DNA of 64,000 nucleotides from an uncultured Gammaproteobacteria bacterium (GTDB taxonomy: Bacteria > Cyanobacteriota > Vampirovibrionia > LMEP-6097), in assembly GCA_964551135.1 (NCBI GenBank), contig CAZKAT010000003.1, positions 1,514-65,513 of the forward strand, written 5' to 3'. Every line of letters begins with the position of its first letter. Within the stretch, counting starts at the first letter, position 1. This document shows positions 39,469 to 59,350 of this stretch, in pieces. Below the pieces are notes generated by a model. The model ran no database searches and was not told the DNA's origin. It was given only the letters and a program-made list of their open reading frames with translations. Position numbers and translations under genes: made by a program.

Positions 39469-39577
39469 CGTCATCGCGAGGAGCGAGCGCAGCGAGTGAC
39501 GTCGCGATCCAGACGAATGCACAATATTTATGACTGGATCCCGACGTCGTCCACTTCGTGGACTCCTCGGGATGACG
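39469..39577. repeat. GC-rich palindromic element B (RPE-like), 109 bp
   Basis: Terminal inverted repeats CGTCATCGCGAGGAG (39469-39483) / CTCCTCGGGATGACG (39563-39577) and inner GGATCCAG/CTGGATCC; same family as element A; sits between gatB and nfi, and the nfi ORF terminates inside it. Confidence 0.75.
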
Positions 39578-40289
39578 GAACTAAAATATCTCCTACTTTT
39601 ACAAGCTTCTTTACTTCCTTGGAATACTGATCCGCTAACCTGGTTGCCTTGGGTATTCTATAGCCATCACAAAATTTAGTAATTATTTCTAAACTAGTTG
39701 GATGATCGATAAGATATCCAGGTGAAATAAAGACCGGATTACATTTAGCTTTAGTTCTGAGTACCGTACCAATAAGTTCATGGCTTTTAGGATCAAGAAG
39801 TTTGGAAGTGGAGAATCGTTCTTCAGCAAGCTTAGAATATTCACCATAGAGTAAAGATTTAGCGCAACCAATGGTCGGTTTATTTATCATCAAACCCATA
39901 TGCGAAGCAATTCCCAAGCGCCTTGGATGAGCGACTCCCTGTCCATCAAAGATATAAATATCAGCATTAATATTATGCTGCTCTATCAGTGCTAAATATA
40001 GAGAACATTCGCGAAAGCTCAGTAAGCCTGGAATATAAGGGAACTTAATCTCACCCACATAGTAATAACGATTAATAATTTCAAGCTCAGGGAAACTAAA
40101 AAGAACAGAAACAGCATAAGCTTGTCCCTGAGCTGTTCCAGCAGAAATAAACCTAGGATTAAGTTCTAAAGCTAAATCAAAAGCAGCTATAGTCTTGATC
40201 TCATCTAAAGAACCAAAAGAATTTTTTAAAACAATTTGTGAGGTCAATTGTTTTTGCAATTGGATTGCATCTTGAGGAGAAACTAGCAT
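39528..40289 (-). CDS. nfi: Endonuclease V
   Basis: 253 aa; AAFDLA, YIPGLLSFRE, HPRRLGIASHMG and PTIGCAKS motifs typical of endonuclease V; the last about 17 codons lie inside palindromic element B. Confidence 0.8.
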   Translation of the reverse strand: MLVSPQDAIQLQKQLTSQIVLKNSFGSLDEIKTIAAFDLALELNPRFISAGTAQGQAYAVSVLFSFPELEIINRYYYVGEIKFPYIPGLLSFRECSLYLALIEQHNINADIYIFDGQGVAHPRRLGIASHMGLMINKPTIGCAKSLLYGEYSKLAEERFSTSKLLDPKSHELIGTVLRTKAKCNPVFISPGYLIDHPTSLEIITKFCDGYRIPKATRLADQYSKEVKKLVKVGDILVPSSRGVHEVDDVGIQS

Positions 40290-40326
40290 TAAGCGTTAAT
40301 TATAGCTATTTGCTATTATATTATGT

Positions 40327-41823: not shown

Positions 41824-42228
41824 GGGGGCGTATAGCTTTGACAGGGGTCAGAGATGGTAAAACGCGAGTCCAGGTAGCCTAGGTCCTGGTAAAGCCAAGG
41901 CAAAACATAAGTGTAAATGAATTTGAAGTAACTGTAGCGCAAGCTACACCTGCTGAGCGTTTCGCTCAAGCAGCTTAGTCCCGACATACTGCGGACACTT
42001 CCTCGCTGCTTAACGGCTAACCGGTTAGGATTGTGAGGCACTAAACAGGTCAGTGCATGAATCATACTTTGATAAGTTTAGTATGAGGAGTAAAGATCAT
42101 AAGCTTAGAACCCGTTGAGTGTCTATGCTCTTAAGCACGGCAACAGCTTAGATTTATAGACTACACTCGTAGTGGTTTATCGTTGAAAACTTTTGGACGC
42201 GAGGGGCAGTTCCTCGCCGCCTCCACCA
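41824..42228 (+). ncRNA. ssrA: tmRNA (transfer-messenger RNA), standard one-piece form
   Basis: 5' GGGGGCG pairs with 3' CGCCUCC (7-bp acceptor stem with G3:U70 alanine identity pair) followed by encoded ACCA; 5' GGGGGCGUAUAGCUUUGACAGGGG resembles the tmRNA tRNA-like domain; T-arm GCGAGG/CCUCGC; internal open frame ending ...AQATPAERFAQAA then UAG, consistent with an Ala-Ala-terminated tag. The overlapping 81-aa minus-strand ORF is considered spurious. Confidence 0.75.
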
Positions 42229-42288: not shown

Positions 42289-43602
42289 ATGAGTACCAAT
42301 ATTATAAATGGAACTTTTATTCAAAGCCCAATGGTAGAAAGTCCTACCAAACCAAATTCTTATTTAGGTAAACGAATAAGAAAGATAACGCCACCTCTTA
42401 AATTACATCATAGACAATTACATTTATCTACAAAAGACTTGTTAAAACTTAGTCTTGAAAAACTCTTTAAAACAAATCCCAATCCAGATGTTGACCAAAT
42501 TTCTGCAGCCATAGACCCAATATTAGTTCCAAGCGAATATGAGCAAGCTTCTAATTCACAACTAATTTGCAAACTATGTGTGCATCGTATTAATGATGCT
42601 TGGGATATTTTTCAAAAATTAAAATCTGATTTGAAACTTGAAAATCCTCAAATAGACTTGGAGTTTGCAAAATCTATTCATGAATCTTATATAACATTAG
42701 TTGAGTCAGAACAAGATCCATTGTCAAACGAAGAGCTAGCGGAGCTAACTCTTAAGGTTATTAAAAAAACTAAATTCATGATAGATCCACGTATTTATAA
42801 AGCTATATTTGGAAACAATGGTAGCTTTAATGTCAAATCTTTTTTGATTCCAGTAACAATTCATGATCAAGCAATTAGACCTGATTCTTCTGAACACAAT
42901 GATTTAAAAAGATTTTTTAAAAATTATGATATAGATATCTCTAATATAGAAATTCCTCCACTGATTGAAACTGATACAGCGTCTGAAGTTGCAGGTCATT
43001 GTGCCACAAATTATATAATTTCTTACCCTCTTGATTCATCTAAAAAGTTATATAGGGAAACTATTGAAACACTTAGAGACTCTTCATTAAAAACACAACT
43101 ATTGTATGAAATAAATAACTATAGTAGCAGTGTTCTATCACATGAACTAACTCATTATTTCCTTAAAGTTAAAGTGCCAAATATTAGGTCTACAGAACCA
43201 ACAGATTTAAACGCAAAAATCTATATTTCGCCTGAAAATTATATTAATTGTGTTATACCTTCAAATGAAATGGCTCGTGAAATGATTGCATATACTATGA
43301 GCTTGTTTACTGATCCAATTTTTTCTATTGCTACAATGCTCGAAAGTAAAGATTCTTGCTTAGAACTTAGCAAGCCAATAATAATAATTTGCAAGGGATT
43401 GGCTTTAGGGTCTCTAGCAAAGGATCAAGCTGAGTTTGATGCAGATTTACAACTCTTACGCAATATGACTGGGATTAACTATATGATTTATATGTTTCAT
43501 AGACTAGGTCAAGAAAAATTTGATCAGTTTGTTAAAACAGTCCAAGAAGTTTTTAAATCTATTTCAGGGCAATTGCTAGCTCAGACACAAGCTCAAAAGT
43601 AG
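42289..43602 (+). CDS. Hypothetical protein with HExxH motif (possible zinc metalloprotease)
   Basis: 437 aa; SHELTHYF HExxH motif with a downstream Glu (PSNEMAREM) that could be a third ligand; otherwise unrecognised. Confidence 0.4.
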   Translation: MSTNIINGTFIQSPMVESPTKPNSYLGKRIRKITPPLKLHHRQLHLSTKDLLKLSLEKLFKTNPNPDVDQISAAIDPILVPSEYEQASNSQLICKLCVHRINDAWDIFQKLKSDLKLENPQIDLEFAKSIHESYITLVESEQDPLSNEELAELTLKVIKKTKFMIDPRIYKAIFGNNGSFNVKSFLIPVTIHDQAIRPDSSEHNDLKRFFKNYDIDISNIEIPPLIETDTASEVAGHCATNYIISYPLDSSKKLYRETIETLRDSSLKTQLLYEINNYSSSVLSHELTHYFLKVKVPNIRSTEPTDLNAKIYISPENYINCVIPSNEMAREMIAYTMSLFTDPIFSIATMLESKDSCLELSKPIIIICKGLALGSLAKDQAEFDADLQLLRNMTGINYMIYMFHRLGQEKFDQFVKTVQEVFKSISGQLLAQTQAQK

Positions 43603-43643
43603 TAACTAAAGCAAGACTGGATTGTATCTAGCTAGGATCCTAG

Positions 43644-44843
43644 TTAATTTGATGCAGCAGCCAATTGTTTTTGTTTTTGATAATAAAGCGTTGCCATAAC
43701 TTTGGCACCATTATGGTCATTCTCTATAGCTATAGGACTATCACTTAATCTATGAAGTTGAGAACCTTTAAACTCCTCAAGGAAAGCTTTTTTATTCTCA
43801 TCATTCGATAAAACATTAGTCAGTGGACTTGCTTGAACAATAAATTGAGCTTGTTGAATTTTAGAATTAGCTTTTATTACATAAGCTAAAACTTTCGCTA
43901 CAACAATTTGAATAGCTTGAAATACTATATCGTCTGTCTGTGGATTAAAGACTTGAGCCATACCATATTTATCACCATTAGTACCTATCTCAGAAGCTTG
44001 TATCTTATGCCTATCAGTTTTCAAATATTCCTCTAATTGTTCAATCAATTTAGGAGTATTAATTACACTTCTTAATTTAGCTAAAGCCACGTCTCTAGAT
44101 CTATTTAAGAGACTAACTATATGCTTTGCAATCGCAAGCAAACCTTCTCGCTCATTAGTTGGCGAGAATAATTCACCCAATTTCACAGCAACTTTTGGTA
44201 ATAGATCTTCAAAAACACCTTGAGGCTTGAATTCTGCATCGTAAAGATTGTGTTTAATTATTCCTTTATTGAAATCATTTTTTTCTTGATTAACATCTTG
44301 ACCCTCTGTTACAGTAAATTTCCCTGAACCAAGATCTATGAAAGCAAGATTCTGAGCAACTTGTATACTTGGAATAGATAAACCTGCAAAGAGTTTAGCA
44401 ATATTTGCACCAATAACTTTAATCTCTAAACCAGCTGCTTTAACACAATCTGATAAAGTTTCTAATGTCTTGCTTAGCGAAGCTTGAAAAACATCTTCAA
44501 ATTTTAAAAGATCTTGAGAATAAGTAGCATTTGGATCCACAAAAAATAATGTAGATGGTCTTTCTAATTTATGAAATTCATAATCAAGATTGGTTAAATT
44601 AGTTAAAGATTGTTTTAATCTAGTGTTCTCTCTATTTAATATCACAGCATTATAAGAACTTGGCTGAACAGATTTTTGGGGATCTCTTGGCAACTCTGAA
44701 TAATTTTGAATAGTTAAATCACCCTTAGTTTTCTTAGCAGAAGGCGGTTCATGCAAAACACAAGCTTTAAAAGACAAGCCTGCTGGTTGCGAAGTATGGG
44801 TACCGGTAATAAAAGACGTTTGCACGACATAATAGACTAGCAT
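43644..44843 (-). CDS. Hypothetical protein (399 aa)
   Basis: ORF only; AFIDLGSGKFTV loosely resembles a phosphate-binding loop of actin-like/Ppx-GppA ATPases but the context is unconvincing. Confidence 0.4.
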   Translation of the reverse strand: MLVYYVVQTSFITGTHTSQPAGLSFKACVLHEPPSAKKTKGDLTIQNYSELPRDPQKSVQPSSYNAVILNRENTRLKQSLTNLTNLDYEFHKLERPSTLFFVDPNATYSQDLLKFEDVFQASLSKTLETLSDCVKAAGLEIKVIGANIAKLFAGLSIPSIQVAQNLAFIDLGSGKFTVTEGQDVNQEKNDFNKGIIKHNLYDAEFKPQGVFEDLLPKVAVKLGELFSPTNEREGLLAIAKHIVSLLNRSRDVALAKLRSVINTPKLIEQLEEYLKTDRHKIQASEIGTNGDKYGMAQVFNPQTDDIVFQAIQIVVAKVLAYVIKANSKIQQAQFIVQASPLTNVLSNDENKKAFLEEFKGSQLHRLSDSPIAIENDHNGAKVMATLYYQKQKQLAAASN

Positions 44844-44975
44844 GAATTACCTGTAAATAACAATCTATGCTGCATTGCCACTATTCATCTTTCTACATAA
44901 TATTCCCAGCATTTGTCTAATGTCTAGCTATGACCCAATTACTTAACCTATTAAATCAAACAACATAATTCATAT

Positions 44976-47888
44976 GTGATAAAATCCACATTCGAAATGT
45001 TGATTAAACCACAATTAATTTTTCAAGCACCAGATAAGGATTTACCAGGCGTAAATCCTAAATCTGGTAATACCAATATTCCAAGTAATTCTTCTTTGCA
45101 ATTAAGACGTAATCTAGCAGCAACGTTATTAACTTATGAAGATACCAGACGTGCCAAATTTTTTGGAGCCATTAATGGAACTCCTCTGGAGTCTTATTTA
45201 CCTAAAGTAAAGTCTCCAATAGAAAAATTCCTGAAAACTAATCCCAGTGATAAATTAATTCAGGCTTGTGCTACAGATTTGCGTAATGGTAGTAGGGAAG
45301 AAGCTATATTAAAAGAAACATTGTCTATTTACGAATCTTTATCCAAAGCCAAGATAGATGATCGCTTTATACCTGTGTTTCAGTCTTTAGTCCGTGCAAA
45401 TGAAGACAATAAACAATATTCTAGACCTCAATTAGTAGAAGTAGTAATAGTTCCTCTATCAAGAATACAAAATTTTAGTGATAAATTACTAACCAAAGCT
45501 ACTAATGATTTAAGTTATTTAGTTGGTAAAAATGGACAAGATGAATCTAAGTTGGCTGAATATATAAAAGTAGCCCAAAATATAGCTGGATACAAACCTA
45601 CTGCTGACATTCGGAATCTTTACAACAATATCCTTAATGCTGTCTGTGCTACTAATGCAGAAGAGTTGAGATTAACAGCAGATTTAAATCGATTCTTCAA
45701 ACGACTTTCAAATTTATCGATATCCTATGATGTTCAAACTGAATTAGAGAAACAAATTCAATATACTGGTACTCAATTTGGATCAGTACCAAATAGCATA
45801 GATAAATATTTATTATCAGTTATAACTTCTTTTATAAACTTTAATGATCGCCTAACTATGTTTTCATCTGATCGTAGAACTCAAGTCGTAGCACATTACA
45901 ATGAATTAGTTCAAATTACAAAAGATTCTGGCATGCATTTGGATACTCTTAATGATTTATTTACAAGAGGAATAAAAGACGATTTTATAACTGAAGAACT
46001 GGATATTGCAAATTCACTTTATCGATCTTCTTTACATTCCACTAAAAGTGGTCTAGCTGATTTAATTGCATATAGAGGAGAGTCTGCTTTAGAGTTAAAA
46101 CGAAGCCTTCGTGACTTGTATCTTAAAGCAAATGACAAAGATAATGCAGTAGCTAAATCGCTGATCTCTAATTTCAACTCGCTTGCTTTATACTGTCCCA
46201 CTAATTGGGTGTCTGATCCTGGTTCATCTACTTTATATGAAGTACCCAACTTAAAACCTTTATTACCGATAGTTAAATGTTTCGACGCCTTAATCGATTC
46301 TAATAATTTCCGTAACAATACTGTTCATATTTTAACTGAAAGATTCAAAGATTCACTGGATGAAAGTCACTATCCATCAGATCTTGCTTATAACAAATTC
46401 GTTAGTGCTATCAAAGCAAAAGGTTATGATGCAGCTCAATTGAAGCGTCAATTAATATTGATTACTGCACATGATATTTTAATGCACAATATCTCTAACA
46501 CGGGAAAGGTACCAGATTGGAAATATTTTAGTGAAATATTCCATAATGGTGATCTTCCTTTTCGTCATGGTACTCCAGAATATGATCAATGCCTGAGAGA
46601 AAGCCAAATTATTATGAGAGCTAGTTTCAATGCTCACTATGGTTTTGGAGCTTTAGCAAACGATGCCAAAGGTTGGAAAGATTCCATCCTGGCAAGATTT
46701 GGAAGAGATGTTGCATTTCAAGAAGTACAGGCACCTCGTTGTAAAGATGGTAATGCTTTTCCTGGAATGGGTTATGTGATAACTGGTCTCAATGATGATT
46801 TTTTACGTATTCCTGATCCAGCAAGAGAGATGAATGGTGATGAGGCATATCAAGACTTTTTAGCAAATTATCCTTTCTTAGCTGCTGTTGCTGATGATAT
46901 AAGTTCTACTCAGTTTACATTTCTTAGGGGAATGGTGGTAATAACTAATACAAAAGATAAATATTGTTTGCCAGATCGTAATCATCAAATGATACCTTAC
47001 TCTCTCGTTATTTATAATGATCATTTTCATAATAATGGTTATGATATTGCTTTCTTAGTTCCTTCAAAAATACTTTTAGATAAAATGAAACCGACCTTAT
47101 TCTCTATCTATGATACAGATGCGCCTGCTACAATACCCCAAAATATTAATGATGTACCACTTGATATTGAGAGTCTTAGAAAAGAAGCTCATGACATGAA
47201 TGCAAGCATTCTTAGTTTAGGTTCATCATCTAATATTGCAGGCTTAAGTAATGCTTGGGAGCCTAATAGAAGACCATATTGGGCATGGGAAGCTGAAAAA
47301 AATCAAGATTGGCGAGACCTTGATGGACATAAACATAAATGGTTTGCGATGGCACGTCATGAACGGTTTTGGACCCCAGAGAATGAAGAAGAAATGAAAC
47401 CTTTTCAAAGAGTACATAAAGAAGTTTATGGAGTTGCAAAATCATTATTTGATAATTTAAATTCATTTAAATTATTTCTCTCAGCTTACAAGCATGGTTA
47501 TTTAGGTAATTTTGCTAGCAAAAAAAGTTCAGCTACAAGGGATGAATCAATAAGAACGTTTGCTAGTTCAGACAGTTTTCAAACCAGTTCTGACAACGAT
47601 ATGATGTTTGATCAAGCATATCTACTAAGGCAAGCAGCTTTAAAAAGAAAAGCCACAAATTTCCCTAAATTAGTTGTTTATGATACTTATAAATGGTCTT
47701 CCGAACCTATTGAAGGTTTTGAGCTTGATTTAGCTAATATGCAATTAACTTGGAATGGACAGACTCATCAATTAAATTTGGATAAACCAACAGCTACAGA
47801 TAGATCCTTATGGAGAAGAGTATTTAACCAATTTACAGGTTTGAATTATGATTTTAGATTTTATGAAAAGGGTTTAAATCAACATTAA
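44976..47888 (+). CDS. Large hypothetical protein (970 aa)
   Basis: Long uninterrupted ORF without recognisable motifs; no signal peptide apparent. Confidence 0.45.
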   Translation: MIKSTFEMLIKPQLIFQAPDKDLPGVNPKSGNTNIPSNSSLQLRRNLAATLLTYEDTRRAKFFGAINGTPLESYLPKVKSPIEKFLKTNPSDKLIQACATDLRNGSREEAILKETLSIYESLSKAKIDDRFIPVFQSLVRANEDNKQYSRPQLVEVVIVPLSRIQNFSDKLLTKATNDLSYLVGKNGQDESKLAEYIKVAQNIAGYKPTADIRNLYNNILNAVCATNAEELRLTADLNRFFKRLSNLSISYDVQTELEKQIQYTGTQFGSVPNSIDKYLLSVITSFINFNDRLTMFSSDRRTQVVAHYNELVQITKDSGMHLDTLNDLFTRGIKDDFITEELDIANSLYRSSLHSTKSGLADLIAYRGESALELKRSLRDLYLKANDKDNAVAKSLISNFNSLALYCPTNWVSDPGSSTLYEVPNLKPLLPIVKCFDALIDSNNFRNNTVHILTERFKDSLDESHYPSDLAYNKFVSAIKAKGYDAAQLKRQLILITAHDILMHNISNTGKVPDWKYFSEIFHNGDLPFRHGTPEYDQCLRESQIIMRASFNAHYGFGALANDAKGWKDSILARFGRDVAFQEVQAPRCKDGNAFPGMGYVITGLNDDFLRIPDPAREMNGDEAYQDFLANYPFLAAVADDISSTQFTFLRGMVVITNTKDKYCLPDRNHQMIPYSLVIYNDHFHNNGYDIAFLVPSKILLDKMKPTLFSIYDTDAPATIPQNINDVPLDIESLRKEAHDMNASILSLGSSSNIAGLSNAWEPNRRPYWAWEAEKNQDWRDLDGHKHKWFAMARHERFWTPENEEEMKPFQRVHKEVYGVAKSLFDNLNSFKLFLSAYKHGYLGNFASKKSSATRDESIRTFASSDSFQTSSDNDMMFDQAYLLRQAALKRKATNFPKLVVYDTYKWSSEPIEGFELDLANMQLTWNGQTHQLNLDKPTATDRSLWRRVFNQFTGLNYDFRFYEKGLNQH

Positions 47889-47907
47889 AATATGCTATTA
47901 TGTTGCC

Positions 47908-48213
47908 ATGATTAAGAATCAAATAATTTATACTGGCCTCAATAAACCTTTCTATGAAAGAACTCTACCTGTTATTGCACCTGAATCTAATTCTATAAGC
48001 ACATTGAGCAGTAGAGACTTACGTAATATTTTTATACCAGTCAATATGCCTGCCTCTCCTCTTCCAGATGCTCCTACAACTCCAACTACTCCAACTCCTG
48101 ATAAAGATGTACCAACAAGAAGCGTACCTTTACCAGCAAACCCTCAACAAGATCCCGATGGTGCTCCAAGTTCGGTACCTTGTCCTCCTAGTGAATGTCC
48201 TCATCCAAGATGA
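47908..48213 (+). CDS. Small Pro/Thr-rich hypothetical protein
   Basis: 101 aa; C-terminal PTTPTTPTPD...CPPSECPHP low-complexity; 20 nt downstream of the 970-aa ORF. Confidence 0.3.
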   Translation: MIKNQIIYTGLNKPFYERTLPVIAPESNSISTLSSRDLRNIFIPVNMPASPLPDAPTTPTTPTPDKDVPTRSVPLPANPQQDPDGAPSSVPCPPSECPHPR

Positions 48214-48271
48214 AACTCTTTGATTAAGACCATTTCAAAGCTACGTTTAGCATTTTAAATCTCTTAGCAAA

Positions 48272-49432
48272 TTAGTTAAAAATATACCAATCAATTATTT
48301 TCCACACATCTTGATTACCAAGCTCTGATGCCATCTCTAATCTAGATTGTGCCGCTGTCTTGCCAACACAGTAAATGCCTGCTTGACTAAGATTTCCTAT
48401 CATTTCGACAAGATGTTCTTGAGCTAATTTGTCTCCTGGAAATAGCTTTGGCATATAAGCATGAACCATATTTTGTAAAATAGCATTGAAAGTAAATAGA
48501 GTTGGCCAAGTGATCATTTCTGCTCTAGTTCTATCTCTGAGCTTTCCTAAGTCATCAGGATTAATTCCTTTCTTAAGTTCTCCGGCAATTACATCTCTTA
48601 AAATATATGCTGAACCAACTATCCCTCCTAAAGCTTTTCCTGAACTAGCATTCAGCTTTAAACCTAACGCAAAACTCAATCCAAAAATCAATAAATCAAT
48701 TGCTGATCTTTTCAAATTGAGTTCTTTTGTAGAAATTTTCTCAATACCCTCATTAGCTTTTTCAAGATCTTTTTTTCTTTCACAAAGATTTTTTACTAAT
48801 ATAGTTAAAGGAATATTTCTCGGGTCGTTTCTATATTCATCTGGATACTTATTTAATTCTGCTTTTACAACGTCACGAAGTTCACTAAGGATAGGATTTC
48901 TGAGATATTTAACTTCTCCAATAATAGTATAGTAACTAAGCATGCTGGCAAATCTAGATTGCATTTGCACAGAATCTGTAAATGATGCAGCAAGAAAATT
49001 AGCAGGATATCTTGCAAGCAGGGCACCTAACTGTATAATCAAACCAGCCCAGGGCCTGCAATAAGCATCAGCATTATCATAACGAAGTGCATCTTCAGAA
49101 CTATGAGGATCTTCTGCATGCTTAACAAAATTATTAGCAATTAAAACTTTCGCTTCATAAAATTCAGCTCCAATAGCAGGCAATGATGAACTAAGGGTGG
49201 GATTAACACAATGCATTACATGATTAACTAATGGAGCTTTTGTTTTTTTATTAGTCTTTTGTGCTAATGCTTTATTAGTTAGCTCTTCAGCATTAGATTG
49301 ATTTTTTTGCTCAGGTTGTTTTTTAATTTCATTTGTTGCATGACCACTAACCGTAAGCAAACCTAGGGGCAAAACTTTTAAAAAATTTCTTCTACTTATT
49401 GGGTGAACCAGCACTGGGCAAAATAATATCAC
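48272..49432 (-). CDS. Hypothetical protein with twin-arginine (Tat) signal
   Basis: 386 aa; N-terminal ISRRNFLKVLPLGLLTVSGHA matches the Tat consensus (S/T-R-R-x-F-L-K plus hydrophobic region and AxA-like site); GTG start. Confidence 0.5.
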   Translation of the reverse strand: MILFCPVLVHPISRRNFLKVLPLGLLTVSGHATNEIKKQPEQKNQSNAEELTNKALAQKTNKKTKAPLVNHVMHCVNPTLSSSLPAIGAEFYEAKVLIANNFVKHAEDPHSSEDALRYDNADAYCRPWAGLIIQLGALLARYPANFLAASFTDSVQMQSRFASMLSYYTIIGEVKYLRNPILSELRDVVKAELNKYPDEYRNDPRNIPLTILVKNLCERKKDLEKANEGIEKISTKELNLKRSAIDLLIFGLSFALGLKLNASSGKALGGIVGSAYILRDVIAGELKKGINPDDLGKLRDRTRAEMITWPTLFTFNAILQNMVHAYMPKLFPGDKLAQEHLVEMIGNLSQAGIYCVGKTAAQSRLEMASELGNQDVWKIIDWYIFN

Positions 49433-49483: not shown

Positions 49484-50788
49484 GTGAAAATAGCTGAAGT
49501 TCAAAAATTAGTAAATAGAACAGAAATAGTGGGTCAGAAAAGACCTACAATTCTTGAAGATCTTTTTGCCTATTTAAACACTCTAGTTACTCAATTTCAC
49601 AAAGCAAAGCAAAATATTTTTGATAAAACTGAGATTGATTTTCAAGAGCCTCTAAAAATAGTAGCAAATGATTTACAAATTAATAATCTTCAACCAATAG
49701 TAGAAACAGAAGATTTCAATTTAGTACGGAATTTAAATTTGGTAGATTTTGCTACATTCCTGGATATAGTAATTAGGACTGTTGCCGTAAAAAATTCTGA
49801 TTTGATTAAGCTTACAGATTTAGCTGCTAAGAATATTTTTAGAACTCATATTAATAAACAAATTTCAGATAGATTAGGAAAAATGTTTTTTGAAGATCAT
49901 TTGGAACCATGGACAAATGATTACATTGATTCATTATCAAGTTCTGAAATTAGCCTTGAAACTCAAGATTTACAGAAAACAATGTTTGATCATGAGAGAA
50001 ATCATTTTTATATTTTTGATATTGATGGAACTCTTAAAGAAGAAGAATCAAATTGTGTAAGCCATGTTATACCAAACATAGATGATCAAGTTAGAAAGGA
50101 TTTGATTACTCTTAGCCAAAAACCTAACACCACCGTCTTAATATTAACATCAAGACCTACGGATGCAATCCAGGAGTCTAATCTACCATATAATATAATC
50201 CCTATGATTACTGGTGCTGGTCGAGAACTTATTAATGGTAATAGACATGAAGTCTTAGTTGGTGATGCATTAATGTCAGAGACAGAAAAGTTTGTAAATC
50301 ATTTACATACTCTGTTAAAGAATCTAAATATATCAAGAGATAAGTATCTTATAAGACAATATGCTGGCTCTCTTTATATTCAGTTCATAGAAAATAATTT
50401 CACTAAAGCAAAAGTTACAGCTATGAAAGCATTGGAAGTATTAATGGCAAACTCTCTTTCAGGCTGGTCAATTGAAAATAGTGATAGTAAATATATCTAC
50501 TTTAAGAACTCTCAATTTCAATATGACAAAGGAATGGCATTGAAAGAAATTCTTACTAATTATAGAGATCAAATAAATGATAAAACGAATATCTATGTTC
50601 TTGGTGATACTTCAAGTGATTATACCGCTATGAAAGCTCTTAAAGAAGCTGATCTGCCAAATGGAGTTAGAAAAGTTAATATTGCAGTTGGTAAAGAATT
50701 AACTGATACAAAGAAATATCCACATGTAGATAAGAGATTAAGTTCGTATCATGCTGTAGCAGATCTATTAAACTGGCTTGCAGTATAA
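49484..50788 (+). CDS. HAD-IIB family phosphatase-like protein (trehalose-phosphatase/Cof-like C-terminal domain) with unknown N-terminal domain
   Basis: 434 aa; HAD motif I FDIDGTL, motif II LILTSR, and motif IV YVLGDTSSD preceded by conserved KG. Confidence 0.5.
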   Translation: MKIAEVQKLVNRTEIVGQKRPTILEDLFAYLNTLVTQFHKAKQNIFDKTEIDFQEPLKIVANDLQINNLQPIVETEDFNLVRNLNLVDFATFLDIVIRTVAVKNSDLIKLTDLAAKNIFRTHINKQISDRLGKMFFEDHLEPWTNDYIDSLSSSEISLETQDLQKTMFDHERNHFYIFDIDGTLKEEESNCVSHVIPNIDDQVRKDLITLSQKPNTTVLILTSRPTDAIQESNLPYNIIPMITGAGRELINGNRHEVLVGDALMSETEKFVNHLHTLLKNLNISRDKYLIRQYAGSLYIQFIENNFTKAKVTAMKALEVLMANSLSGWSIENSDSKYIYFKNSQFQYDKGMALKEILTNYRDQINDKTNIYVLGDTSSDYTAMKALKEADLPNGVRKVNIAVGKELTDTKKYPHVDKRLSSYHAVADLLNWLAV

Positions 50789-50848
50789 TTATTAAGTGGA
50801 CAATTTCCTTTAATTTCAACTCAAATCATTTGAGGTATAATATACTTA

Positions 50849-51913
50849 ATGCCAAAACTAGAATTGAAACCTAGGACATATATAATTCTAGCTATCATCA
50901 TAGCTTTAATAATTGTCGTGCATTTGTATTTAGCAGTATGGGTGAAACATTATGTCAATAAAAAGATGGCAGATTTAAACGGATATAGTGGTTCAATAGA
51001 AAAAATTGAAATACATCTATGGCGAGGAGCTTATAAAATTGACGGTCTGAATATTTATAAAGAACTGGGTGGACTGAAAAAGCCTTTTTTCTCCACAGAA
51101 ACTATGGATATCTCTGTTGATTGGCGTGCACTGTTGAAGGGTGCCATAGTTGCAGAGATTACGTTTAATAAGCCTAAAATTAATTTCGCTAAAACCCAGA
51201 CGGGAGAAAACGCTGGATGGGGTGATTTTATTGACTCACTTGCTCCTTTTGAAATCAACCGTCTAAATGTAAAAAAAGGGAAATTATCCTATATCGATTA
51301 TTCAGCTGAACCAGATGTAAATCTATTTATTGACAATGTTAACGCACAGGTCACTAATCTTAATAACATTGATCATAAGAGTAATGCCCTTCCTTCAACT
51401 CTTAGGGTAACTGGTAAATCTATTGGCAATGGTAATTTAACAGTAAATGGAAGTATGAATATTTTGACTGATATACCAAGTTTTGATCTTGATTTAAAAC
51501 TTACCAAAGCCAAATTAACTGCATTCAATGATTTTATACATGATGCAGCTGGCATAACTTTTGAAGAAGGGAATATAGGAATCTTCTGTGAACTAGCTTC
51601 TACTAAAGGAGAAGTGAAAGGCTATGTTAAGCCTATTCTTACCCATGTTCGCATAATAGATATTAAAAAGGATAAAAATCCATTTAACCTAATCTGGGAA
51701 TCACTTGTATCAGTATTTATGGAAGCCTTCAAAAATCAGCATAAGGACCAATTCGCTATGCGTATACCAATAGAGGGTAAACTAGAAAATCCAAAAGAAG
51801 ATTCATGGAGAGGCTTCTTGAGCATTTTCAGTAATGCTTTTAAACATGCCTTCAAAAGAAATGTAGACGGAACTATAAGCTACAAGGATATACTTGTAGA
51901 AGCCAGAACCTGA
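50849..51913 (+). CDS. DUF748/AsmA-like membrane-anchored protein
   Basis: 354 aa; single N-terminal TM helix (YIILAIIIALIIVVHLYLAVW) followed by a beta-rich region resembling DUF748/AsmA-family proteins. Confidence 0.4.
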   Translation: MPKLELKPRTYIILAIIIALIIVVHLYLAVWVKHYVNKKMADLNGYSGSIEKIEIHLWRGAYKIDGLNIYKELGGLKKPFFSTETMDISVDWRALLKGAIVAEITFNKPKINFAKTQTGENAGWGDFIDSLAPFEINRLNVKKGKLSYIDYSAEPDVNLFIDNVNAQVTNLNNIDHKSNALPSTLRVTGKSIGNGNLTVNGSMNILTDIPSFDLDLKLTKAKLTAFNDFIHDAAGITFEEGNIGIFCELASTKGEVKGYVKPILTHVRIIDIKKDKNPFNLIWESLVSVFMEAFKNQHKDQFAMRIPIEGKLENPKEDSWRGFLSIFSNAFKHAFKRNVDGTISYKDILVEART

Positions 51914-51939
51914 ATACCTGATAAAATTTATAATGCTCG

Positions 51940-53257
51940 ATGTTTGAACTATGGTTAAAGCGTATATTTTTCTCTAAGATAGACATCTCTATTATTGCTT
52001 ATTTCAGAATTGTTTTTGGACTCTGCATGTTAATCAATAGTATCCAGCTCTTTACTGAAGATTACATTGAATATTACTGGTTGAGACCACGTTTTCATTT
52101 TCATTACCTAGGTCTAGAATGGATACATGCTCTACCAGGTAAGGGCATGTATATTCTATGCTTTATTATTAGTCTGAGTTCTTTGTTTATAATGCTTGGA
52201 TTCTTCTATCGATTAAGTATTATAGTTTTTTTCTTCAGTTGGACTTATACATGGTTAATCGGTCAGAGTACTTATAACAATCATTATTACCTTATTTCCC
52301 TTCTTAGTTTTCTAATGATTTTCATTGCAGCTAATGGAAAGTATGCATTAGATGACATGATATTCCCAAATATCCAAACAGACGAACTAGCGTCCTGGAC
52401 TTTATTTATACTGCGTTTCCAGATTGCGATTCCTTATATCTATGGAGGTATCGCTAAACTTAATGAAGATTGGTTTCATGGTGAACCAGTAAGAACATGG
52501 TTAACAAACACAGGAGGATTTGTTGATCAAGAATGGTTTGTATATTTTGTTTCATATGGAGGACTGATCTTTGACTTGACTATTATTCCTTTACTTATTT
52601 GGCAAAGAACAAGGTTGCTAGCATTTATCGCAGTTATTGGCTTTCATCTTAGTAATCACTTCGCGTTTTCAGATATCAGTATTGGAATATTTCCATGGTT
52701 GATGATTGCAGCGACTGCCTTGTTTTTTGAGCCTAGTCAATTCTCCAAATTATTTATGAGGATTAAGCATGTTAAGTAAAATAGAAAAACTAATTTCCTT
52801 ACTCTTAATTTTGTTCATTTTGATACAGATCATTGTTCCTTTTCGATATTTATATTACCCAGGACCTTCTGCCTGGAATGAAGAAGCACATAAATTTATT
52901 TGGCATATGAAACTCGCACACAAGAAGGCTTACGCTCAATTTATCGTATTCAGCCCAAGTCTGAACAAATCATATAAAGTTGATACAAGAAAATTTCTTA
53001 CTAGCTGGCAATATGAAGTGATGGTATCCAATCCCAGATTGATACTACAGTTTGCTCACTATTTAAGAGACTTATATAAAGAACGGGGCATCAATGACAT
53101 AGTAATTAAAGTTGAAGCCAAAACTTCACTCAATAATAGACCGCTACAATATCTCGTAGACCCTAATGTAGATTTAGCCAAGAAAGAAAACACTTTAAAG
53201 CATTTTGATTGGATTATGCCGTTAAATGTTAAGGTAGTACCTAAACATTCATTATAA
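51940..53257 (+). CDS. HTTM-domain (vitamin K-dependent gamma-carboxylase-like) membrane protein, apparently split by a +1 frameshift into ORFs 51940..52779 and 52769..53257
   Basis: First ORF carries HTTM hallmarks (AYFRIVFG, PRFHFHYLGLEW, LGFFYRLS, NNHYYL); second ORF (overlapping by 11 nt in another frame) begins ...PFRYLYYPGPSAWNEEAHKFIWHMKL, which reads like the continuation of the same domain. Confidence 0.5.
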
Positions 53258-53289: not shown

Positions 53290-53478
53290 ATGTCCCTCAG
53301 GTATCATTCAAATACAAGTGCTAGATTAAACTCTTTTATTCAAACAAGAAATAAAACACTAAAACTAATCGAAAACTTAAATGAAGAAGATGCTTACATT
53401 CAGTCCATGCCAGATGTAAGTCACATTAAGAGTGGAATAGCTCTAATTCTTATAGTTTTATTTTTCTGTTCAATTTAA
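53290..53478 (+). pseudogene. Remnant of an egtB-like N-terminus (truncated paralogous fragment)
   Basis: SFIQTRNKTLKLIENLNEEDAYIQSMPDVS aligns with LFIQVRNKTLDLVRDLNEEDTCLQSMTDAS at the N-terminus of the egtB gene at 53867, then diverges and terminates. Confidence 0.5.
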
Positions 53479-53866: not shown

Positions 53867-55201
53867 ATGCATTTAATCAATCCACAAACTCCTAAAATAA
53901 ATTCAACTAGTACAAATACTATATTAAATCTATTTATTCAAGTAAGGAATAAAACTTTAGATTTAGTTAGAGATTTAAATGAAGAAGATACTTGCTTACA
54001 ATCAATGACAGATGCAAGTCCCACTAAATGGCACCTAGCACATAGCTCGTGGTTCTTTGAAACTTTCTTACTTAAAAAATTTAAAACTAATTACAAAGAG
54101 TTTAATCCTGATTTTAATTTTCTATTTAACTCTTACTACAACTCTATAGGTAGAAACCGCTTCCCGCGTTCAAAACGAGGCTTAATCTCAAAACCAACTC
54201 TCCAAGAAGTTATAAATTATAGAAAACATATTGATAATAGCATCATAGAATTAATGGAGAAAGGTCTTCTAGAATCCAAAGCAAACACTGTGCATGAGAT
54301 TATTAGCATATTAACCTTAGGAATTCATCATGAACAACAACATCAAGAACTAATCATTACTGATATTAAGCATGTTCTATCGAAGAATCCGCTGAAGCCT
54401 ATTTTCTCAGACTATACACGTAAAATAATTTTAGGTAGCAAATCTACAATTAGCAAAAAGTCTGAATATATATACCAGCCAGGCGGCATAGTCGAAATTG
54501 GTTATCGAGACGGGGACTCTACTACTGATTTTTGTTTTGATAATGAAATACCAAGCCATCCAGTCTATCTTGAACCATGTTTGATTAGCTCTCAATTAGT
54601 TACTAATAGTGAGTTTCAAGAATTTATGGAAGATGATGCTTATAATCGTCCTGAATTATGGCTAGCAGATGGTTTTGATTTTATTAAAGCTAATAATATT
54701 CATTGTCCACTATATTGGTTTAAAGAAGATAGTAAATGGCAAATCTTTACACTTGGTGGCGTATTCAAACTGAATCCTAAGGAACCAGTTGTACATGTCA
54801 GTTTCTATGAAGCAGAAGCCTTTGCTAGATGGCGTAAAGCAAGGTTAGTGCGTGAAGCAGAATGGGAATCTTTTGCAGAAGAACCATTTAGTAAGAGAAA
54901 TATACTAACTAGTAATTTCCAAGAAAATAATATTTTCCATCCTCTCGCTACTAACGAGTTACAAGTATATGGCAACCTATGGCAATGGACCATGAGTGCA
55001 TATAGTCCATATCCAGGTTATAAAGAACTACCAGGGGCGCTAGGAGAATATAACGGTAAATTTATGATCAATCAAATGGTACTCAAAGGTGGTTCCTGTG
55101 CGACTCCTAGATCACATATTAGATCAAGCTATCGCAATTTTTTCTATCCTCAGCAAAGATGGCAATTTATGGGGATTAGACTTGCCCAAGATGTTTCATA
55201 A
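53867..55201 (+). CDS. egtB: Ergothioneine biosynthesis sulfoxide synthase EgtB-like (DinB_2 plus FGE-sulfatase domains)
   Basis: 444 aa; N-terminal DinB-like metal site (HLAHSSWFFETF, GIHHEQQHQEL) and C-terminal FGE-like domain (GNLWQWTMSAY...KGGSCATP...RWQFMGIRLA). Confidence 0.75.
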   Translation: MHLINPQTPKINSTSTNTILNLFIQVRNKTLDLVRDLNEEDTCLQSMTDASPTKWHLAHSSWFFETFLLKKFKTNYKEFNPDFNFLFNSYYNSIGRNRFPRSKRGLISKPTLQEVINYRKHIDNSIIELMEKGLLESKANTVHEIISILTLGIHHEQQHQELIITDIKHVLSKNPLKPIFSDYTRKIILGSKSTISKKSEYIYQPGGIVEIGYRDGDSTTDFCFDNEIPSHPVYLEPCLISSQLVTNSEFQEFMEDDAYNRPELWLADGFDFIKANNIHCPLYWFKEDSKWQIFTLGGVFKLNPKEPVVHVSFYEAEAFARWRKARLVREAEWESFAEEPFSKRNILTSNFQENNIFHPLATNELQVYGNLWQWTMSAYSPYPGYKELPGALGEYNGKFMINQMVLKGGSCATPRSHIRSSYRNFFYPQQRWQFMGIRLAQDVS

Positions 55202-58237: not shown

Positions 58238-59350
58238 TTAGTGCCACATTTTTTGCAACGCCTCTCCGGCCTTATTCAGTGCTTCATTAACCGCCTGCGT
58301 TGCAACTTGTCCCACAGCTCCCACTAAATCAGGACGAATTTGTGGTTTATCAGTACGTCCTGTGATTTTAAGAGGAATGGTACCGCCAGGTAGTACTTGA
58401 CCAACTTTAAGGGGAACAATTCTATCAAGTCCATGGACAAATATACTTAAGTCCATATTATTGTCAAACCCAATAGAGCCTTGTCCTGTTGCCGAAAGTA
58501 ATTTATTGGAGAGTGATAAATTAGAAAGGTAAACTTTCTGATCACGAATGGAGAAGTTACTACTTAGCTTATCAAAATTATCACCTTGCTCTACTTCGCT
58601 TGACTCAGAAGATACTTTCAAACTATCAATTATAGGTTTTATTAAATTAATAAATTTAAATTCTCCTTGATATAAATTAAAACTTCCTTGACCAGTAATA
58701 TTGGTTAAAGGATCAATCTTGTCACTAGCGCTAAAACTGAGTTCAAATTTAGGGACTTCTACCTCTGCTCTAATCTGGTCAGTATCAGCATTTAAGCACG
58801 CTAATGTTTTGTTCAATGCTCCACGTGATAAAGCTCCATGCAATTGCACTATAGAAACTTCTGTCTTCATATCAGTATCCACTACACCATTTGCATGCAA
58901 ATTACTATTACCTAATGTCAATAAAGCATTACTAATAATGATATGTGGATTCTTTTGTTTTTCAGGAATATAAGGGACACATATAAAATCCAAACCACCA
59001 CTGCAACCAGAGATCGCTCGATGCCCTAGATAGATCTTCTCAGCAGCAGCATGACCATCTAAACAATAATTAGGTTGATAAGTATTTTTAGCGATTCTAG
59101 TAATCTCAATATTCTCAAGATTGATAGTTGCTTCTCCTTCGCCTACCGCTAAAAGCTTCAGAGTTATTTTCCTCTGCTCTTTGCTGAATGATTTAGCTAA
59201 ATTAAAGTTCGCACCTCGAACTTTAATTGGCATTTTAAAATCTTTTGTCAATTGGTATGAAATGATTTGATCTTTTACATAAAAGAAAAATACCAAAATC
59301 AATATGGCAACAATTAATATTGCAATCAAAGCTGTAGTCTTCTTATTCAT
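58238..59350 (-). CDS. AsmA-family-like membrane-anchored protein
   Basis: 370 aa; N-terminal TM anchor (ALIAILIVAILILVFFFY); C-terminal region (GTIPLKITGRTDKPQIRPDL) resembles the conserved AsmA C-terminus. Confidence 0.45.
   Translation of the reverse strand: MNKKTTALIAILIVAILILVFFFYVKDQIISYQLTKDFKMPIKVRGANFNLAKSFSKEQRKITLKLLAVGEGEATINLENIEITRIAKNTYQPNYCLDGHAAAEKIYLGHRAISGCSGGLDFICVPYIPEKQKNPHIIISNALLTLGNSNLHANGVVDTDMKTEVSIVQLHGALSRGALNKTLACLNADTDQIRAEVEVPKFELSFSASDKIDPLTNITGQGSFNLYQGEFKFINLIKPIIDSLKVSSESSEVEQGDNFDKLSSNFSIRDQKVYLSNLSLSNKLLSATGQGSIGFDNNMDLSIFVHGLDRIVPLKVGQVLPGGTIPLKITGRTDKPQIRPDLVGAVGQVATQAVNEALNKAGEALQKMWH

What the first reader, a model, noticed from the sequence alone, without database searches (positions are those of the whole stretch)
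51940..53257. HTTM-domain (vitamin K-dependent gamma-carboxylase-like) gene apparently split by a +1 frameshift
ORF 51940..52779 carries clear HTTM-domain signatures (AYFRIVFG, PRFHFHYLGLEW, LGFFYRLS, NNHYYL). The next ORF (52769..53257) is in a different frame, overlaps by 11 nt, and its sequence (PFRYLYYPGPSAWNEEAHKFIWHMKL...) reads like the continuation of the same protein rather than a separate gene. The second frame is open only from 52760, so any shift must occur within about 20 nt (52760-52779). Either this is a recent pseudogene, a sequencing error, or a frameshift-dependent expression arrangement. HTTM proteins in bacteria are poorly understood.
Basis: partly seen in the sequence, partly recalled or inferred. 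Interest (0 to 1): 0.55.

Follow-up and report, generated by a model that had tools for sequence, protein, structure and literature searches.

The report
Conserved two-piece vitamin-K-carboxylase-like gene
A bacterial relative of the vitamin K-dependent carboxylase is encoded here as two overlapping genes instead of one, and a distant relative keeps the same break, so it is most likely a working two-subunit enzyme rather than a broken gene or a sequencing error.

Summary
ORF1 (51940-52779, 279 aa) is a complete HTTM domain. ORF2 (52769-53257, 162 aa, +1 frame, 11-nt overlap) is one membrane helix plus a complete VKGC lumenal domain. All 119 best protein homologues and 80 of 80 genome loci carry both parts in one chain.

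The break is not an error. It is identical in six contigs, including a second sequencing run that differs by SNPs elsewhere. It is not a recent pseudogene either. The only close relative found (an 850-bp contig, 59% identical ORF2) has the same layout: the HTTM reading frame ends in TAA, ORF2 starts in the +1 frame at the aligned ATG, and a G-rich Shine-Dalgarno-like run lies 4-6 nt upstream. Between the two ORF2 copies synonymous sites are saturated (pS 0.85) while pN is 0.27, and the other frames hold 13-17 stops. ORF2 has therefore been under purifying selection.

No feature of programmed +1 frameshifting is present or conserved. The best reading is an old gene fission between the equivalents of human GGCX TM8 and TM9, expressed as two translationally coupled cistrons that assemble in the membrane. 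Independent fissions at the same linker occur in other lineages. The biochemical function is unknown. Interest is modest.

The parts
51929..51934 (+). TATAAT -10-like hexamer 5 nt upstream of the ORF1 start codon (candidate promoter of a leaderless or near-leaderless transcript)
   Evidence: Read directly from the sequence. The same arrangement is found at 14 of 46 long-ORF starts in the window, against 4.9% of all ATGs. Function is inferred.
51940..52779 (+). ORF1, 279 aa: complete HTTM membrane domain (Pfam residues 11-265, nt 51970-52734). By alignment it corresponds to the part of human GGCX that ends with TM8 and contains the vitamin K pocket and the catalytic-lysine motif GGIAKLNEDW (K173).
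   Evidence: PF05090, E 2e-73. (residues 14-271 align to GGCX 59-319, E 2e-29). (all 35 columns invariant across 60 sequences are kept, including K173, W178, N114 and H115).
52758..52762 (+). GAGGA, a Shine-Dalgarno-like motif 6 nt upstream of the ORF2 start, inside the end of ORF1
   Evidence: A 5-mer SD precedes only 1.6% of all ATGs in the window, and a 4-mer core precedes 4.4%. The orthologue L086 has AGGGGG 4 nt upstream of its aligned ATG. Function is inferred.
52769..52779 (+). 11-nt overlap: ORF2 start codon ATG 52769-52771 to ORF1 stop codon TAA 52777-52779
   Evidence: In L086 the ATG aligns exactly, while the ORF1 stop lies 3 nt further on, giving a 14-nt overlap.
52769..53257 (+). 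ORF2, 162 aa: short basic N-terminus (MLSKIEK), one membrane helix, then the complete VKGC lumenal domain
   Evidence: PF22777, E 5e-41. (aligns to GGCX from about residue 365 on, i.e. TM9 onwards). (orthologue P0245; purifying selection).
52790..52843 (+). Predicted membrane helix of ORF2 (residues 8-25, LISLLLILFILIQIIVPF), the counterpart of the last TM helix (TM9) of GGCX
   Evidence: Hydrophobic run seen in the sequence. It aligns with the helix that precedes the PxRHxLYPG motif in all homologues. The GGCX architecture is taken from PMC12647623.
52787..53227 (+). Lumenal (periplasmic) domain, Pfam residues 7-153 of ORF2. It begins with the conserved loop motif VPFRYLYYPG...WNEEAHKFIWHMKL, the counterpart of GGCX loop LL9.
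   Evidence: The role of LL9 as a lid over the vitamin K pocket is from PMC12647623.

Best explanation
This is an old gene fission of a bacterial vitamin-K-carboxylase-like (HTTM + lumenal domain) membrane enzyme, kept by selection as two overlapping cistrons. ORF1 encodes the HTTM membrane core, which carries the quinone pocket and the conserved lysine. ORF2 encodes the last membrane helix, the conserved lid loop and the lumenal domain.

Inferred mechanism: ORF2 is translated from its own ATG (52769), served by a Shine-Dalgarno-like GAGGA inside the end of ORF1, so its translation is coupled to that of ORF1. Its basic N-terminus stays in the cytoplasm, its helix inserts next to the ORF1 helices, and the two chains rebuild the composite active site that single-chain homologues form from one polypeptide.

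What is shown: the domain content, the break point, the reality of the break in DNA, its conservation in a divergent relative, and purifying selection on ORF2. What is inferred: independent initiation, assembly of the two chains, and quinol-dependent oxygenase or carboxylase chemistry.
For: 1. Both halves are complete and collinear with single-chain homologues. The break lies in the length-variable linker between the HTTM domain and the last TM helix.
2. By alignment to solved human GGCX, the break falls between residues about 319 and 365. I infer this is the TM8-TM9 connection, from the nine-TM architecture in PMC12647623.
3. The junction is identical in six contigs, including a second run with 19 SNPs elsewhere.
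4. Orthologue L086/P0245 has 59% aa identity in ORF2 and 67% DNA identity. It shares the lineage-specific FSD/FTE insertion and the RY, A/S substitutions. It has the same +1 break, an aligned ATG, a G-rich SD-like run and a 14-nt overlap.
5. Between the two ORF2 copies, differences by codon position are 61/34/83 (chi-square p 4e-5), pS is 0.85 (saturated) and pN is 0.27. The other frames hold 13-17 stops.
6. The two frame-1 residues that overlap the ATG differ (HV versus DA) while the ATG is kept, and the ORF1 stop has moved by 3 nt.
7. In this genome SD motifs are rare: 7 of 46 starts. Three of those seven, including egtD and ORF2, lie within 12 nt of, or overlap, the upstream same-strand gene.
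8. Independent fissions occur at the same linker in other lineages. Each has its own ATG and an SD-like motif: a Tara Oceans population in 4 samples with an 8-nt overlap, and L088/L089 with an ATGA overlap. The nearest relatives of each are intact proteins.
9. Literature precedent: an HTTM protein and an adjacent gene encoding a TM helix plus DUF5819 are predicted to form a GGCX-like complex, and they are fused in MloH (bioRxiv 10.64898/2026.08.19.745780).
Against: Only one orthologue with the break was found. It lies on an 850-bp contig that shows only the last 52 codons of its ORF1. Conservation of the ATG and SD therefore rests on two sequences and could be chance: the local DNA identity is about 67%.

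The window protein departs from 17 of 114 highly conserved columns, against a median of 3 and a maximum of 15 in 59 intact homologues (22 of 130). This could mean relaxed constraint or a changed function.

There are no expression, protein or assembly data. Nothing in the neighbourhood is shared with other HTTM loci, so the substrate and the chemistry are unknown.
Confidence: 0.68

Rival explanations
1. Programmed +1 ribosomal frameshifting. Ribosomes reaching the end of ORF1 shift +1 at or before the TAA and continue into ORF2. This would make a single-chain enzyme, possibly alongside an HTTM-only product.
For: The +1 relationship and a short overlap ending in TAA-A are kept in both lineages, and a G-rich SD-like run lies upstream in both. 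Skipping one base at the stop would give a sensible short linker in both sequences.
Against: No P-site codon in 52760-52776 can re-pair in the +1 frame: AAG to AGU in the window, ACU to CUU in L086. The last sense codon and the position of the stop are not conserved. The stop is TAA-A, not a poor stop such as UGA-C. The SD-like run is 11-13 nt from the would-be shift codon, not about 3 nt as in prfB, but it sits at a normal distance (4-6 nt) from the conserved ATG. There is no stable RNA structure at the junction (z 0.39). The prfB features are from established knowledge, not tested experimentally here.
Confidence: 0.13
2. Pseudogene. The frameshift inactivated the gene and one or both halves are decaying remnants.
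For: Every other homologue seen among the best hits is single-chain. The window protein is the most deviant at conserved columns. A gene fragment (a duplicated egtB N-terminus) lies just downstream. The gene sits in a low-GC variable region.
Against: There are no further stops or frameshifts in 279 + 162 codons, although the off-frames carry about one stop per 10 codons. The same break is present in a lineage with saturated synonymous divergence, with ORF2 still open and pN/pS about 0.3. All 35 columns invariant across 60 sequences are kept.
Confidence: 0.07
3. Two independent proteins that no longer work together. ORF1 acts as a stand-alone HTTM enzyme and ORF2 has acquired a separate role.
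For: HTTM-only proteins are common in bacteria (for example the linaridin cluster gene crdG, PMC9927463). The lineage shows unusual substitutions in conserved motifs of both halves.
Against: The genes remain overlapping and in the same order in both lineages. In human GGCX the segment that aligns to ORF2 (TM9, LL9, clamps) covers the vitamin K pocket formed by the segment that aligns to ORF1. A lumenal domain therefore has no obvious role without the core.
Confidence: 0.1
4. Sequencing or assembly error: a spurious 1-nt insertion.
For: A single frame change in an otherwise intact gene is the usual signature of such errors.
Against: The junction is identical in six contigs from at least two read sets. 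The contig name of one assembly states 29x coverage. No homopolymer longer than 2 nt lies in 52760-52776. An orthologue with 67% DNA identity has the same break.
Confidence: 0.02

Closest known systems
Single-chain bacterial HTTM + VKGC_lumenal_dom proteins (about 440-600 aa; annotated 'HTTM domain-containing protein' or 'vitamin K-dependent gamma-carboxylase' in cyanobacteria, Acidobacteriota, Planctomycetota, Verrucomicrobiota and others)
   Same: Same two domains in the same order, 40-46% identity over the whole length, and all invariant residues kept.
   Different: Here the two domains are on two overlapping cistrons in different frames, and the linker is very short. The lineage carries unusual substitutions at otherwise conserved positions: RH to RY, EEGH to EEAH, KLR to KLA.
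[quoted passage not shown]
   Same: The HTTM core aligns to GGCX residues 59-319 (E 2e-29), and ORF2 aligns to about 365-511, i.e. TM9 and the start of the lumenal domain. The lysine motif is kept.
   Different: GGCX is one chain of 758 aa, with two clamps and a C-terminal domain that bind propeptide-bearing substrates (PMC12647623). The bacterial pair totals 441 aa and lacks the C-terminal domain. Its substrate and activity are unknown.
HTTM protein plus a separately encoded TM-helix + DUF5819 protein (Melghirimyces thermohalophilus pair; fused in the malonomycin carboxylase MloH)
   Same: Two adjacent genes: one encodes the HTTM core, the other a single TM helix followed by an extracytoplasmic domain. 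The latter is predicted to occupy the place of the GGCX clamp and one GGCX TM helix (bioRxiv 10.64898/2026.08.19.745780). The division of labour is the same as proposed here.
   Different: ORF2 is a PF22777 lumenal domain, not DUF5819. That complex is itself only a prediction. Here the two-gene state clearly derives from a fused ancestor of the PF05090+PF22777 type.
prfB-type programmed +1 frameshift (release factor 2)
   Same: A +1 frame change at the end of an upstream frame that stops shortly after, with an SD-like purine run upstream.
   Different: There is no CUU-U type slippery codon and no weak UGA-C stop. The SD is at initiation distance from an ATG rather than 3 nt from the shift codon, and the would-be shift site is not conserved between orthologues.

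Membership tests
HTTM domain family (Pfam PF05090) | Profile match above Pfam's gathering score over the whole domain | tested here: met
   ORF1: 247.5 bits against a cut-off of 27.7, profile positions 1-257 of 259.
HTTM domain family (Pfam PF05090) | Conserved lysine motif (GGxAKLxxDW) and the NH(F/Y)YL motif of the membrane core | tested here: met
   GGIAKLNEDW (K173, W178) and NNHYYL (N114, H115) lie in columns invariant across 60 sequences. Equivalence to the human catalytic lysine rests on the alignment and on published knowledge.
VKGC lumenal domain (Pfam PF22777) | Profile match above the gathering score over the whole domain | tested here: met
   ORF2: 140.7 bits against a cut-off of 27.7, profile positions 3-150 of 152.
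Vitamin K-dependent gamma-carboxylase proper (GGCX-type enzyme) | Single polypeptide carrying the TM domain, lumenal clamps and C-terminal domain | tested here: not met
   Two cistrons totalling 441 aa. No region corresponds to the GGCX C-terminal domain.
Vitamin K-dependent gamma-carboxylase proper (GGCX-type enzyme) | Quinol-dependent epoxidation coupled to carboxylation of a propeptide-bearing substrate | not testable with these tools
   This needs an enzyme assay. No candidate substrate gene is conserved next to the locus.
Translationally coupled overlapping cistrons | Downstream start codon within a few nucleotides of the upstream stop, on the same strand | tested here: met
   ATG 52769 and TAA 52777-52779, an 11-nt overlap. 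The overlap is 14 nt in L086.
Translationally coupled overlapping cistrons | Ribosome-binding motif at initiation distance, kept in orthologues | tested here: met
   GAGGA + 6 nt in the window and AGGGGG + 4 nt in L086. The background rate is 1.6-4.4% of ATGs. Only two sequences are available.
Translationally coupled overlapping cistrons | Separate downstream polypeptide actually made | not testable with these tools
   This needs proteomics or ribosome profiling.
Programmed +1 ribosomal frameshift (prfB / antizyme type) | Slippery P-site codon able to re-pair in the +1 frame, next to a poor stop or rare codon | tested here: not met
   The codons in 52760-52779 are AGG ATT AAG CAT GTT AAG TAA-A, and none re-pairs in +1. 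In L086 the corresponding end is ACT TAA-A.
Programmed +1 ribosomal frameshift (prfB / antizyme type) | Shift site conserved at nucleotide level among orthologues; stimulatory element at the proper distance | tested here: not met
   The last sense codon differs and the stop is displaced by 3 nt. The SD-like run is 11-13 nt upstream of the would-be shift codon. No structure is predicted.
Pseudogene | Loss of coding constraint: equal change at the three codon positions, accumulation of stops, break not shared by diverged relatives | tested here: not met
   Differences by codon position are 61/34/83, pN is 0.27 against pS 0.85, and there are no extra stops. The break is shared with L086.
HTTM / DUF5819 two-gene system | Partner protein carries DUF5819 | tested here: not met
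   The Pfam scan of ORF2 at E up to 0.01 returns only PF22777. The arrangement works like this system but is not a member of it.

The most novel reading that the evidence does not exclude
The conserved +1 overlap may be a regulatory device rather than a simple fission. A fraction of ribosomes would shift +1 at the end of ORF1 by a mechanism without tRNA re-pairing. The cell would then make both an HTTM-only protein and a full-length fusion in a set ratio. This would be a new class of +1 recoding site in a non-photosynthetic cyanobacterial lineage that otherwise relies heavily on leaderless translation.
Probability: 0.1. Interest if true: 0.65.

Novelty: new variant of a known kind. Interest (0 to 1): 0.35.

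Why it matters
Bacterial HTTM/VKGC-like proteins are widespread, and almost none has a known function. A naturally split version that is kept by selection shows that the membrane core (the stretch aligning to the part of human GGCX that ends with TM8) and the last helix plus lumenal domain can be made as separate chains. The same fission arose independently in at least two other lineages. This supports the recent prediction that HTTM enzymes can work as two-protein complexes. It also marks the cytoplasmic linker before the last helix as a permissive split point for engineering or for co-expression and structural work. Practically, it warns annotators not to label such pairs as frameshifted pseudogenes. 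It does not reveal a new kind of system, and it does not tell us the substrate.

Tried and rejected
- The word-indexed protein search with ORF2 alone found only itself. The exhaustive representative search was needed to find P0245.
- Two metagenome scans found no further clade member. One used an alignment of ORF2 and P0245. The other used a degenerate DNA pattern for QIIVPFRYL..YPG. The single pattern hit, L093, is an intact 460-aa gene of another lineage.
- The genome-collection scan did not contain the source genome or a close relative; the best hit was 46% identical.
No 3D model was made.
- tblastn of nine neighbouring window proteins against the 80 homologous loci gave no hit, so gene context gives no functional clue.
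- No repeat of the tmRNA 3' end was found that would delimit a genomic island.
- Short lumenal-domain proteins P0267 (L087), P0317 (L090), P0301 (L091) and P0252 (L098) proved uninformative. L087 has a garbled stretch with several stops in an assembly whose neighbouring genes are also fragmented. L090 and L098 lie at contig edges. L091 has a truncated upstream part in the same frame.
- P0249 (L092) has a TTG start and is 79% identical to an intact protein, so it may be a recent frameshift or an error.
- A literature search for the old report of trypsin cleavage of GGCX into two disulfide-linked fragments returned nothing usable. That recollection is therefore not used as evidence.
- Searches for the assembly and run accessions in papers found nothing.

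Full report
**1. The observation**

ORF1 runs 51940..52779 (279 aa). ORF2 runs 52769..53257 (162 aa) in the +1 frame and overlaps ORF1 by 11 nt. Frame 2 carries a TGA at 52757-52759 and ORF1 stops at TAA 52777-52779.

Pfam gives a full-length HTTM match for ORF1: PF05090, profile positions 1-257 of 259, E 2e-73. It gives a full-length VKGC_lumenal_dom match for ORF2: PF22777, positions 3-150 of 152, E 5e-41.

A conceptual fusion finds 1285 homologues. The 119 best after ORF1 itself are all single proteins of 416-600 aa with both domains, at 38-46% identity. All 80 loci kept from the genome collection have one continuous match of about 1.3 kb.

In the alignment, ORF1 and ORF2 cover the two parts without loss. 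The break lies in a linker of variable length and sequence. This linker sits between the end of the HTTM domain (FFxPxWPRR...) and the hydrophobic helix that precedes the conserved PxRHxLYPG..WTEEGHRFxWHMKLR motif (A1).

**2. The break is real DNA**

Exact copies of both ORFs occur on six contigs. The ENA contig is identical to the window. A Logan assembly of another run (SRR17828886) differs by 19 substitutions in 12.8 kb and has no indel. None of those substitutions is in the HTTM pair. No run longer than two identical bases lies between 52760 and 52776.

**3. The organism and the surroundings**

Topoisomerase I of the window is 72-85% identical to proteins named Candidatus Melainabacteria or Caenarcaniphilales. 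The source is therefore a non-photosynthetic cyanobacterial relative (Vampirovibrionia).

A tmRNA gene lies at 41824-42228. After it, G+C falls from about 0.38 to 0.31-0.34, and several large ORFs have no family match. Synteny with the nearest relative (GatB, endonuclease V, TrpA, GNAT) ends there.

The HTTM pair lies in this variable region. On one side is a DUF748 gene; on the other is an egtB-like/egtD pair. None of these neighbours is found next to HTTM genes elsewhere.

**4. The decisive result: a divergent relative has the same break**

An exhaustive search of 1.8 billion representatives with ORF2 gave, as best hit, P0245. It is 156 aa and 59% identical, and its residues 2-155 align to residues 2-155 of ORF2. 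P0245 shares the lineage-specific departures from the family consensus: RY for RH, A/S for G in EEGH, and A/S for R in KLR.

Its contig (L086, 850 bp, NCBI assembly GCA_021733385.1) shows an upstream frame reading ...FHLTNNFSFTEITIGMFPWFMIAATAMFFGPESFKKMFSRLRGQDAKT*. This is the end of an HTTM domain, and it has the same three-residue insertion as the window's ORF1. That frame stops at TAA 159-161. P0245 starts at ATG 148 in the +1 frame, giving a 14-nt overlap, and AGGGGG lies four bases upstream.

DNA identity between L086 and the window is 67%. In the DNA alignment the two ATGs coincide and ORF2 aligns without gaps from there on. The ORF1 stop lies three bases further along in L086. The two frame-1 residues that overlap the ATG differ (HV versus DA).

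**5. Selection**

Over 156 aligned codons of ORF2 the differences by codon position are 61, 34 and 83 (chi-square p 4e-5). The proportion of synonymous differences is 0.85, which is saturated. The proportion of non-synonymous differences is 0.27. The two other frames of the same DNA hold 13-17 stops.

If the break is inherited from the common ancestor, all of this divergence happened after the break. The shared frame relation, ATG and position make common inheritance much the simplest reading. ORF2 has therefore been kept as a coding sequence. ORF1 is open for 279 codons in the window, and the 49 comparable codons give dN 0.39 and dS 1.05.

All 35 columns invariant across 60 sequences are kept in the window protein, including the GGIAKLNxDW lysine motif. 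Against this, the window protein departs from the consensus at 17 of 114 highly conserved columns. The median among 59 intact homologues is 3 and the maximum is 15 (22 of 130 in the smaller alignment). It is a divergent lineage, possibly with altered function.

**6. How ORF2 is expressed**

Most long ORFs of the window have no Shine-Dalgarno motif: only 7 of 46 do. In contrast, 14 of 46 have a TATAAT-like hexamer ending 4-9 nt before the start codon, against 4.9% of all ATGs. This points to frequent leaderless transcripts. ORF1 is of that kind: TATAAT at 51929-51934, then five bases, then ATG.

Of the seven SD-bearing starts, three lie within 12 nt of, or overlap, the upstream same-strand gene: egtD, the ORF at 595-1395, and ORF2. 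ORF2 has GAGGA, six bases, then ATG. A 5-mer SD of that type precedes only 1.6% of ATGs in the window. The motif and the ATG are both kept in L086.

A programmed +1 frameshift is not supported, for four reasons:
- No codon in the 20-nt interval can re-pair in the +1 frame.
- The stop is TAA-A.
- The last sense codon and the stop position differ between the two lineages.
- The junction RNA is no more stable than shuffled sequence (z 0.39).

I therefore take independent, coupled initiation as the mechanism. This step is inferred, not shown.

**7. What the two chains would do**

Against solved human GGCX, residues 14-271 of ORF1 align to GGCX 59-319. ORF2 aligns from about residue 365 onwards.

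In the cryo-EM structures GGCX has nine TM helices. Vitamin K sits in a pocket formed by TM5-TM8 and is covered by a cap and by the conserved lumenal loop LL9. The lumenal clamps sit on top (PMC12647623).

Combining the two, I infer that the break lies in the cytoplasmic connection between TM8 and TM9. ORF2 would then supply TM9, the LL9-like loop (VPFRYLYYPG...HKFIWHMKL) and the lumenal domain. Its N-terminus (MLSKIEK) is basic, which fits a cytoplasmic start. The active site would be composite, so the two chains would have to assemble.

A 2026 preprint predicts just such a two-protein complex for HTTM proteins paired with a neighbouring gene that encodes a TM helix plus DUF5819. It notes that the two parts are fused in the malonomycin carboxylase MloH. 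The chemistry (quinol oxygenation used to activate a substrate) is carried over from the family and was not tested. The substrate is unknown.

**8. The same fission elsewhere**

Several other short, Met-initiated lumenal-domain proteins turned up.
- A marine population seen in four Tara Oceans samples has a 339-aa HTTM gene and a 183-aa lumenal gene. The lumenal gene is in the +1 frame, with an 8-nt overlap and AGGAA six bases upstream, and is followed by a DCC1-like gene.
- A GC-rich lineage seen in two runs has 302 + 167 aa with an ATGA overlap.
- The nearest relatives of each of these are intact single-chain proteins, so the fissions are independent.
- Other cases were contig-edge artefacts, error-ridden assemblies or possibly recent frameshifts.

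**9. Verdict**

Its three explanations are largely displaced by a fourth: a conserved gene fission expressed as two coupled cistrons (confidence about 0.68). The rivals are:
- programmed frameshifting (0.13)
- two proteins that no longer cooperate (0.10)
- pseudogene (0.07)
- sequencing error (0.02)

This is a new variant of a known family, not a new kind of system. Interest is modest (0.35).

Noticed in passing
whole window; e.g. 51929-51940, 50837-50851, 39528-40305 (- strand start): Many genes have a TATAAT-like hexamer ending 4-9 nt before the start codon: 14 of 46 long ORFs, against 4.9% of all ATGs. Only 7 of 46 have a Shine-Dalgarno core. This suggests widespread leaderless mRNAs in this Vampirovibrionia genome.
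   Followed up: partly
53290-53478 (+): A 62-aa ORF is 53% identical over 45 residues to the N-terminus of the adjacent egtB-like gene (53867-55201). It looks like an old partial duplication or gene remnant just downstream of ORF2.
   Followed up: partly
54820-55037, 55515, 58301-58315: The second sample (SRR17828886) differs from the window by 19 substitutions in 12.8 kb. All fall in three tight clusters, 15 of them within 220 bp of the egtB-like gene. This looks like a recombination or gene-conversion tract rather than even divergence.
   Followed up: no
41824-42228 and 42289-49432: Rfam finds a standard tmRNA (93.6 bits) that ARAGORN does not report, and there is no tRNA gene in the 64 kb. 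Downstream of the tmRNA, G+C drops to 0.31-0.34 and four large ORFs (386-970 aa) match no Pfam or NCBIfam family. Synteny with the nearest relative (L085) ends here, where that genome has a serine recombinase and a TIR gene. This is a possible genomic island, but no flanking repeat was found.
   Followed up: partly
L094-L097 (Tara Oceans scaffolds), L088/L089: Independent fissions of HTTM + lumenal-domain genes occur at the same linker in other lineages. One has 339 + 183 aa with an 8-nt overlap, followed by a DCC1-like gene, and is seen in four ocean samples. Another has 302 + 167 aa with an ATGA overlap.
   Followed up: partly
L085 (GCA_013565675.1, JACCDV010561642.1) and L086 (GCA_021733385.1, JAKFYZ010140502.1): The two closest relatives of this organism sit in NCBI assemblies whose contig numbers exceed 140,000 and 560,000. 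These are very large assemblies, possibly eukaryotic hosts or bulk metagenomes, which hints that the lineage turns up as an associate or contaminant. Their identity could not be looked up.
   Followed up: no
49484-50788 (+): A 434-aa ORF has only sub-threshold matches to trehalose-phosphatase families: T6PP_C at 25.8 bits against a cut-off of 26.7, and Trehalose_PPase at 22.4 against 27. It is a divergent HAD-type phosphatase next to the DUF748 gene.
   Followed up: no
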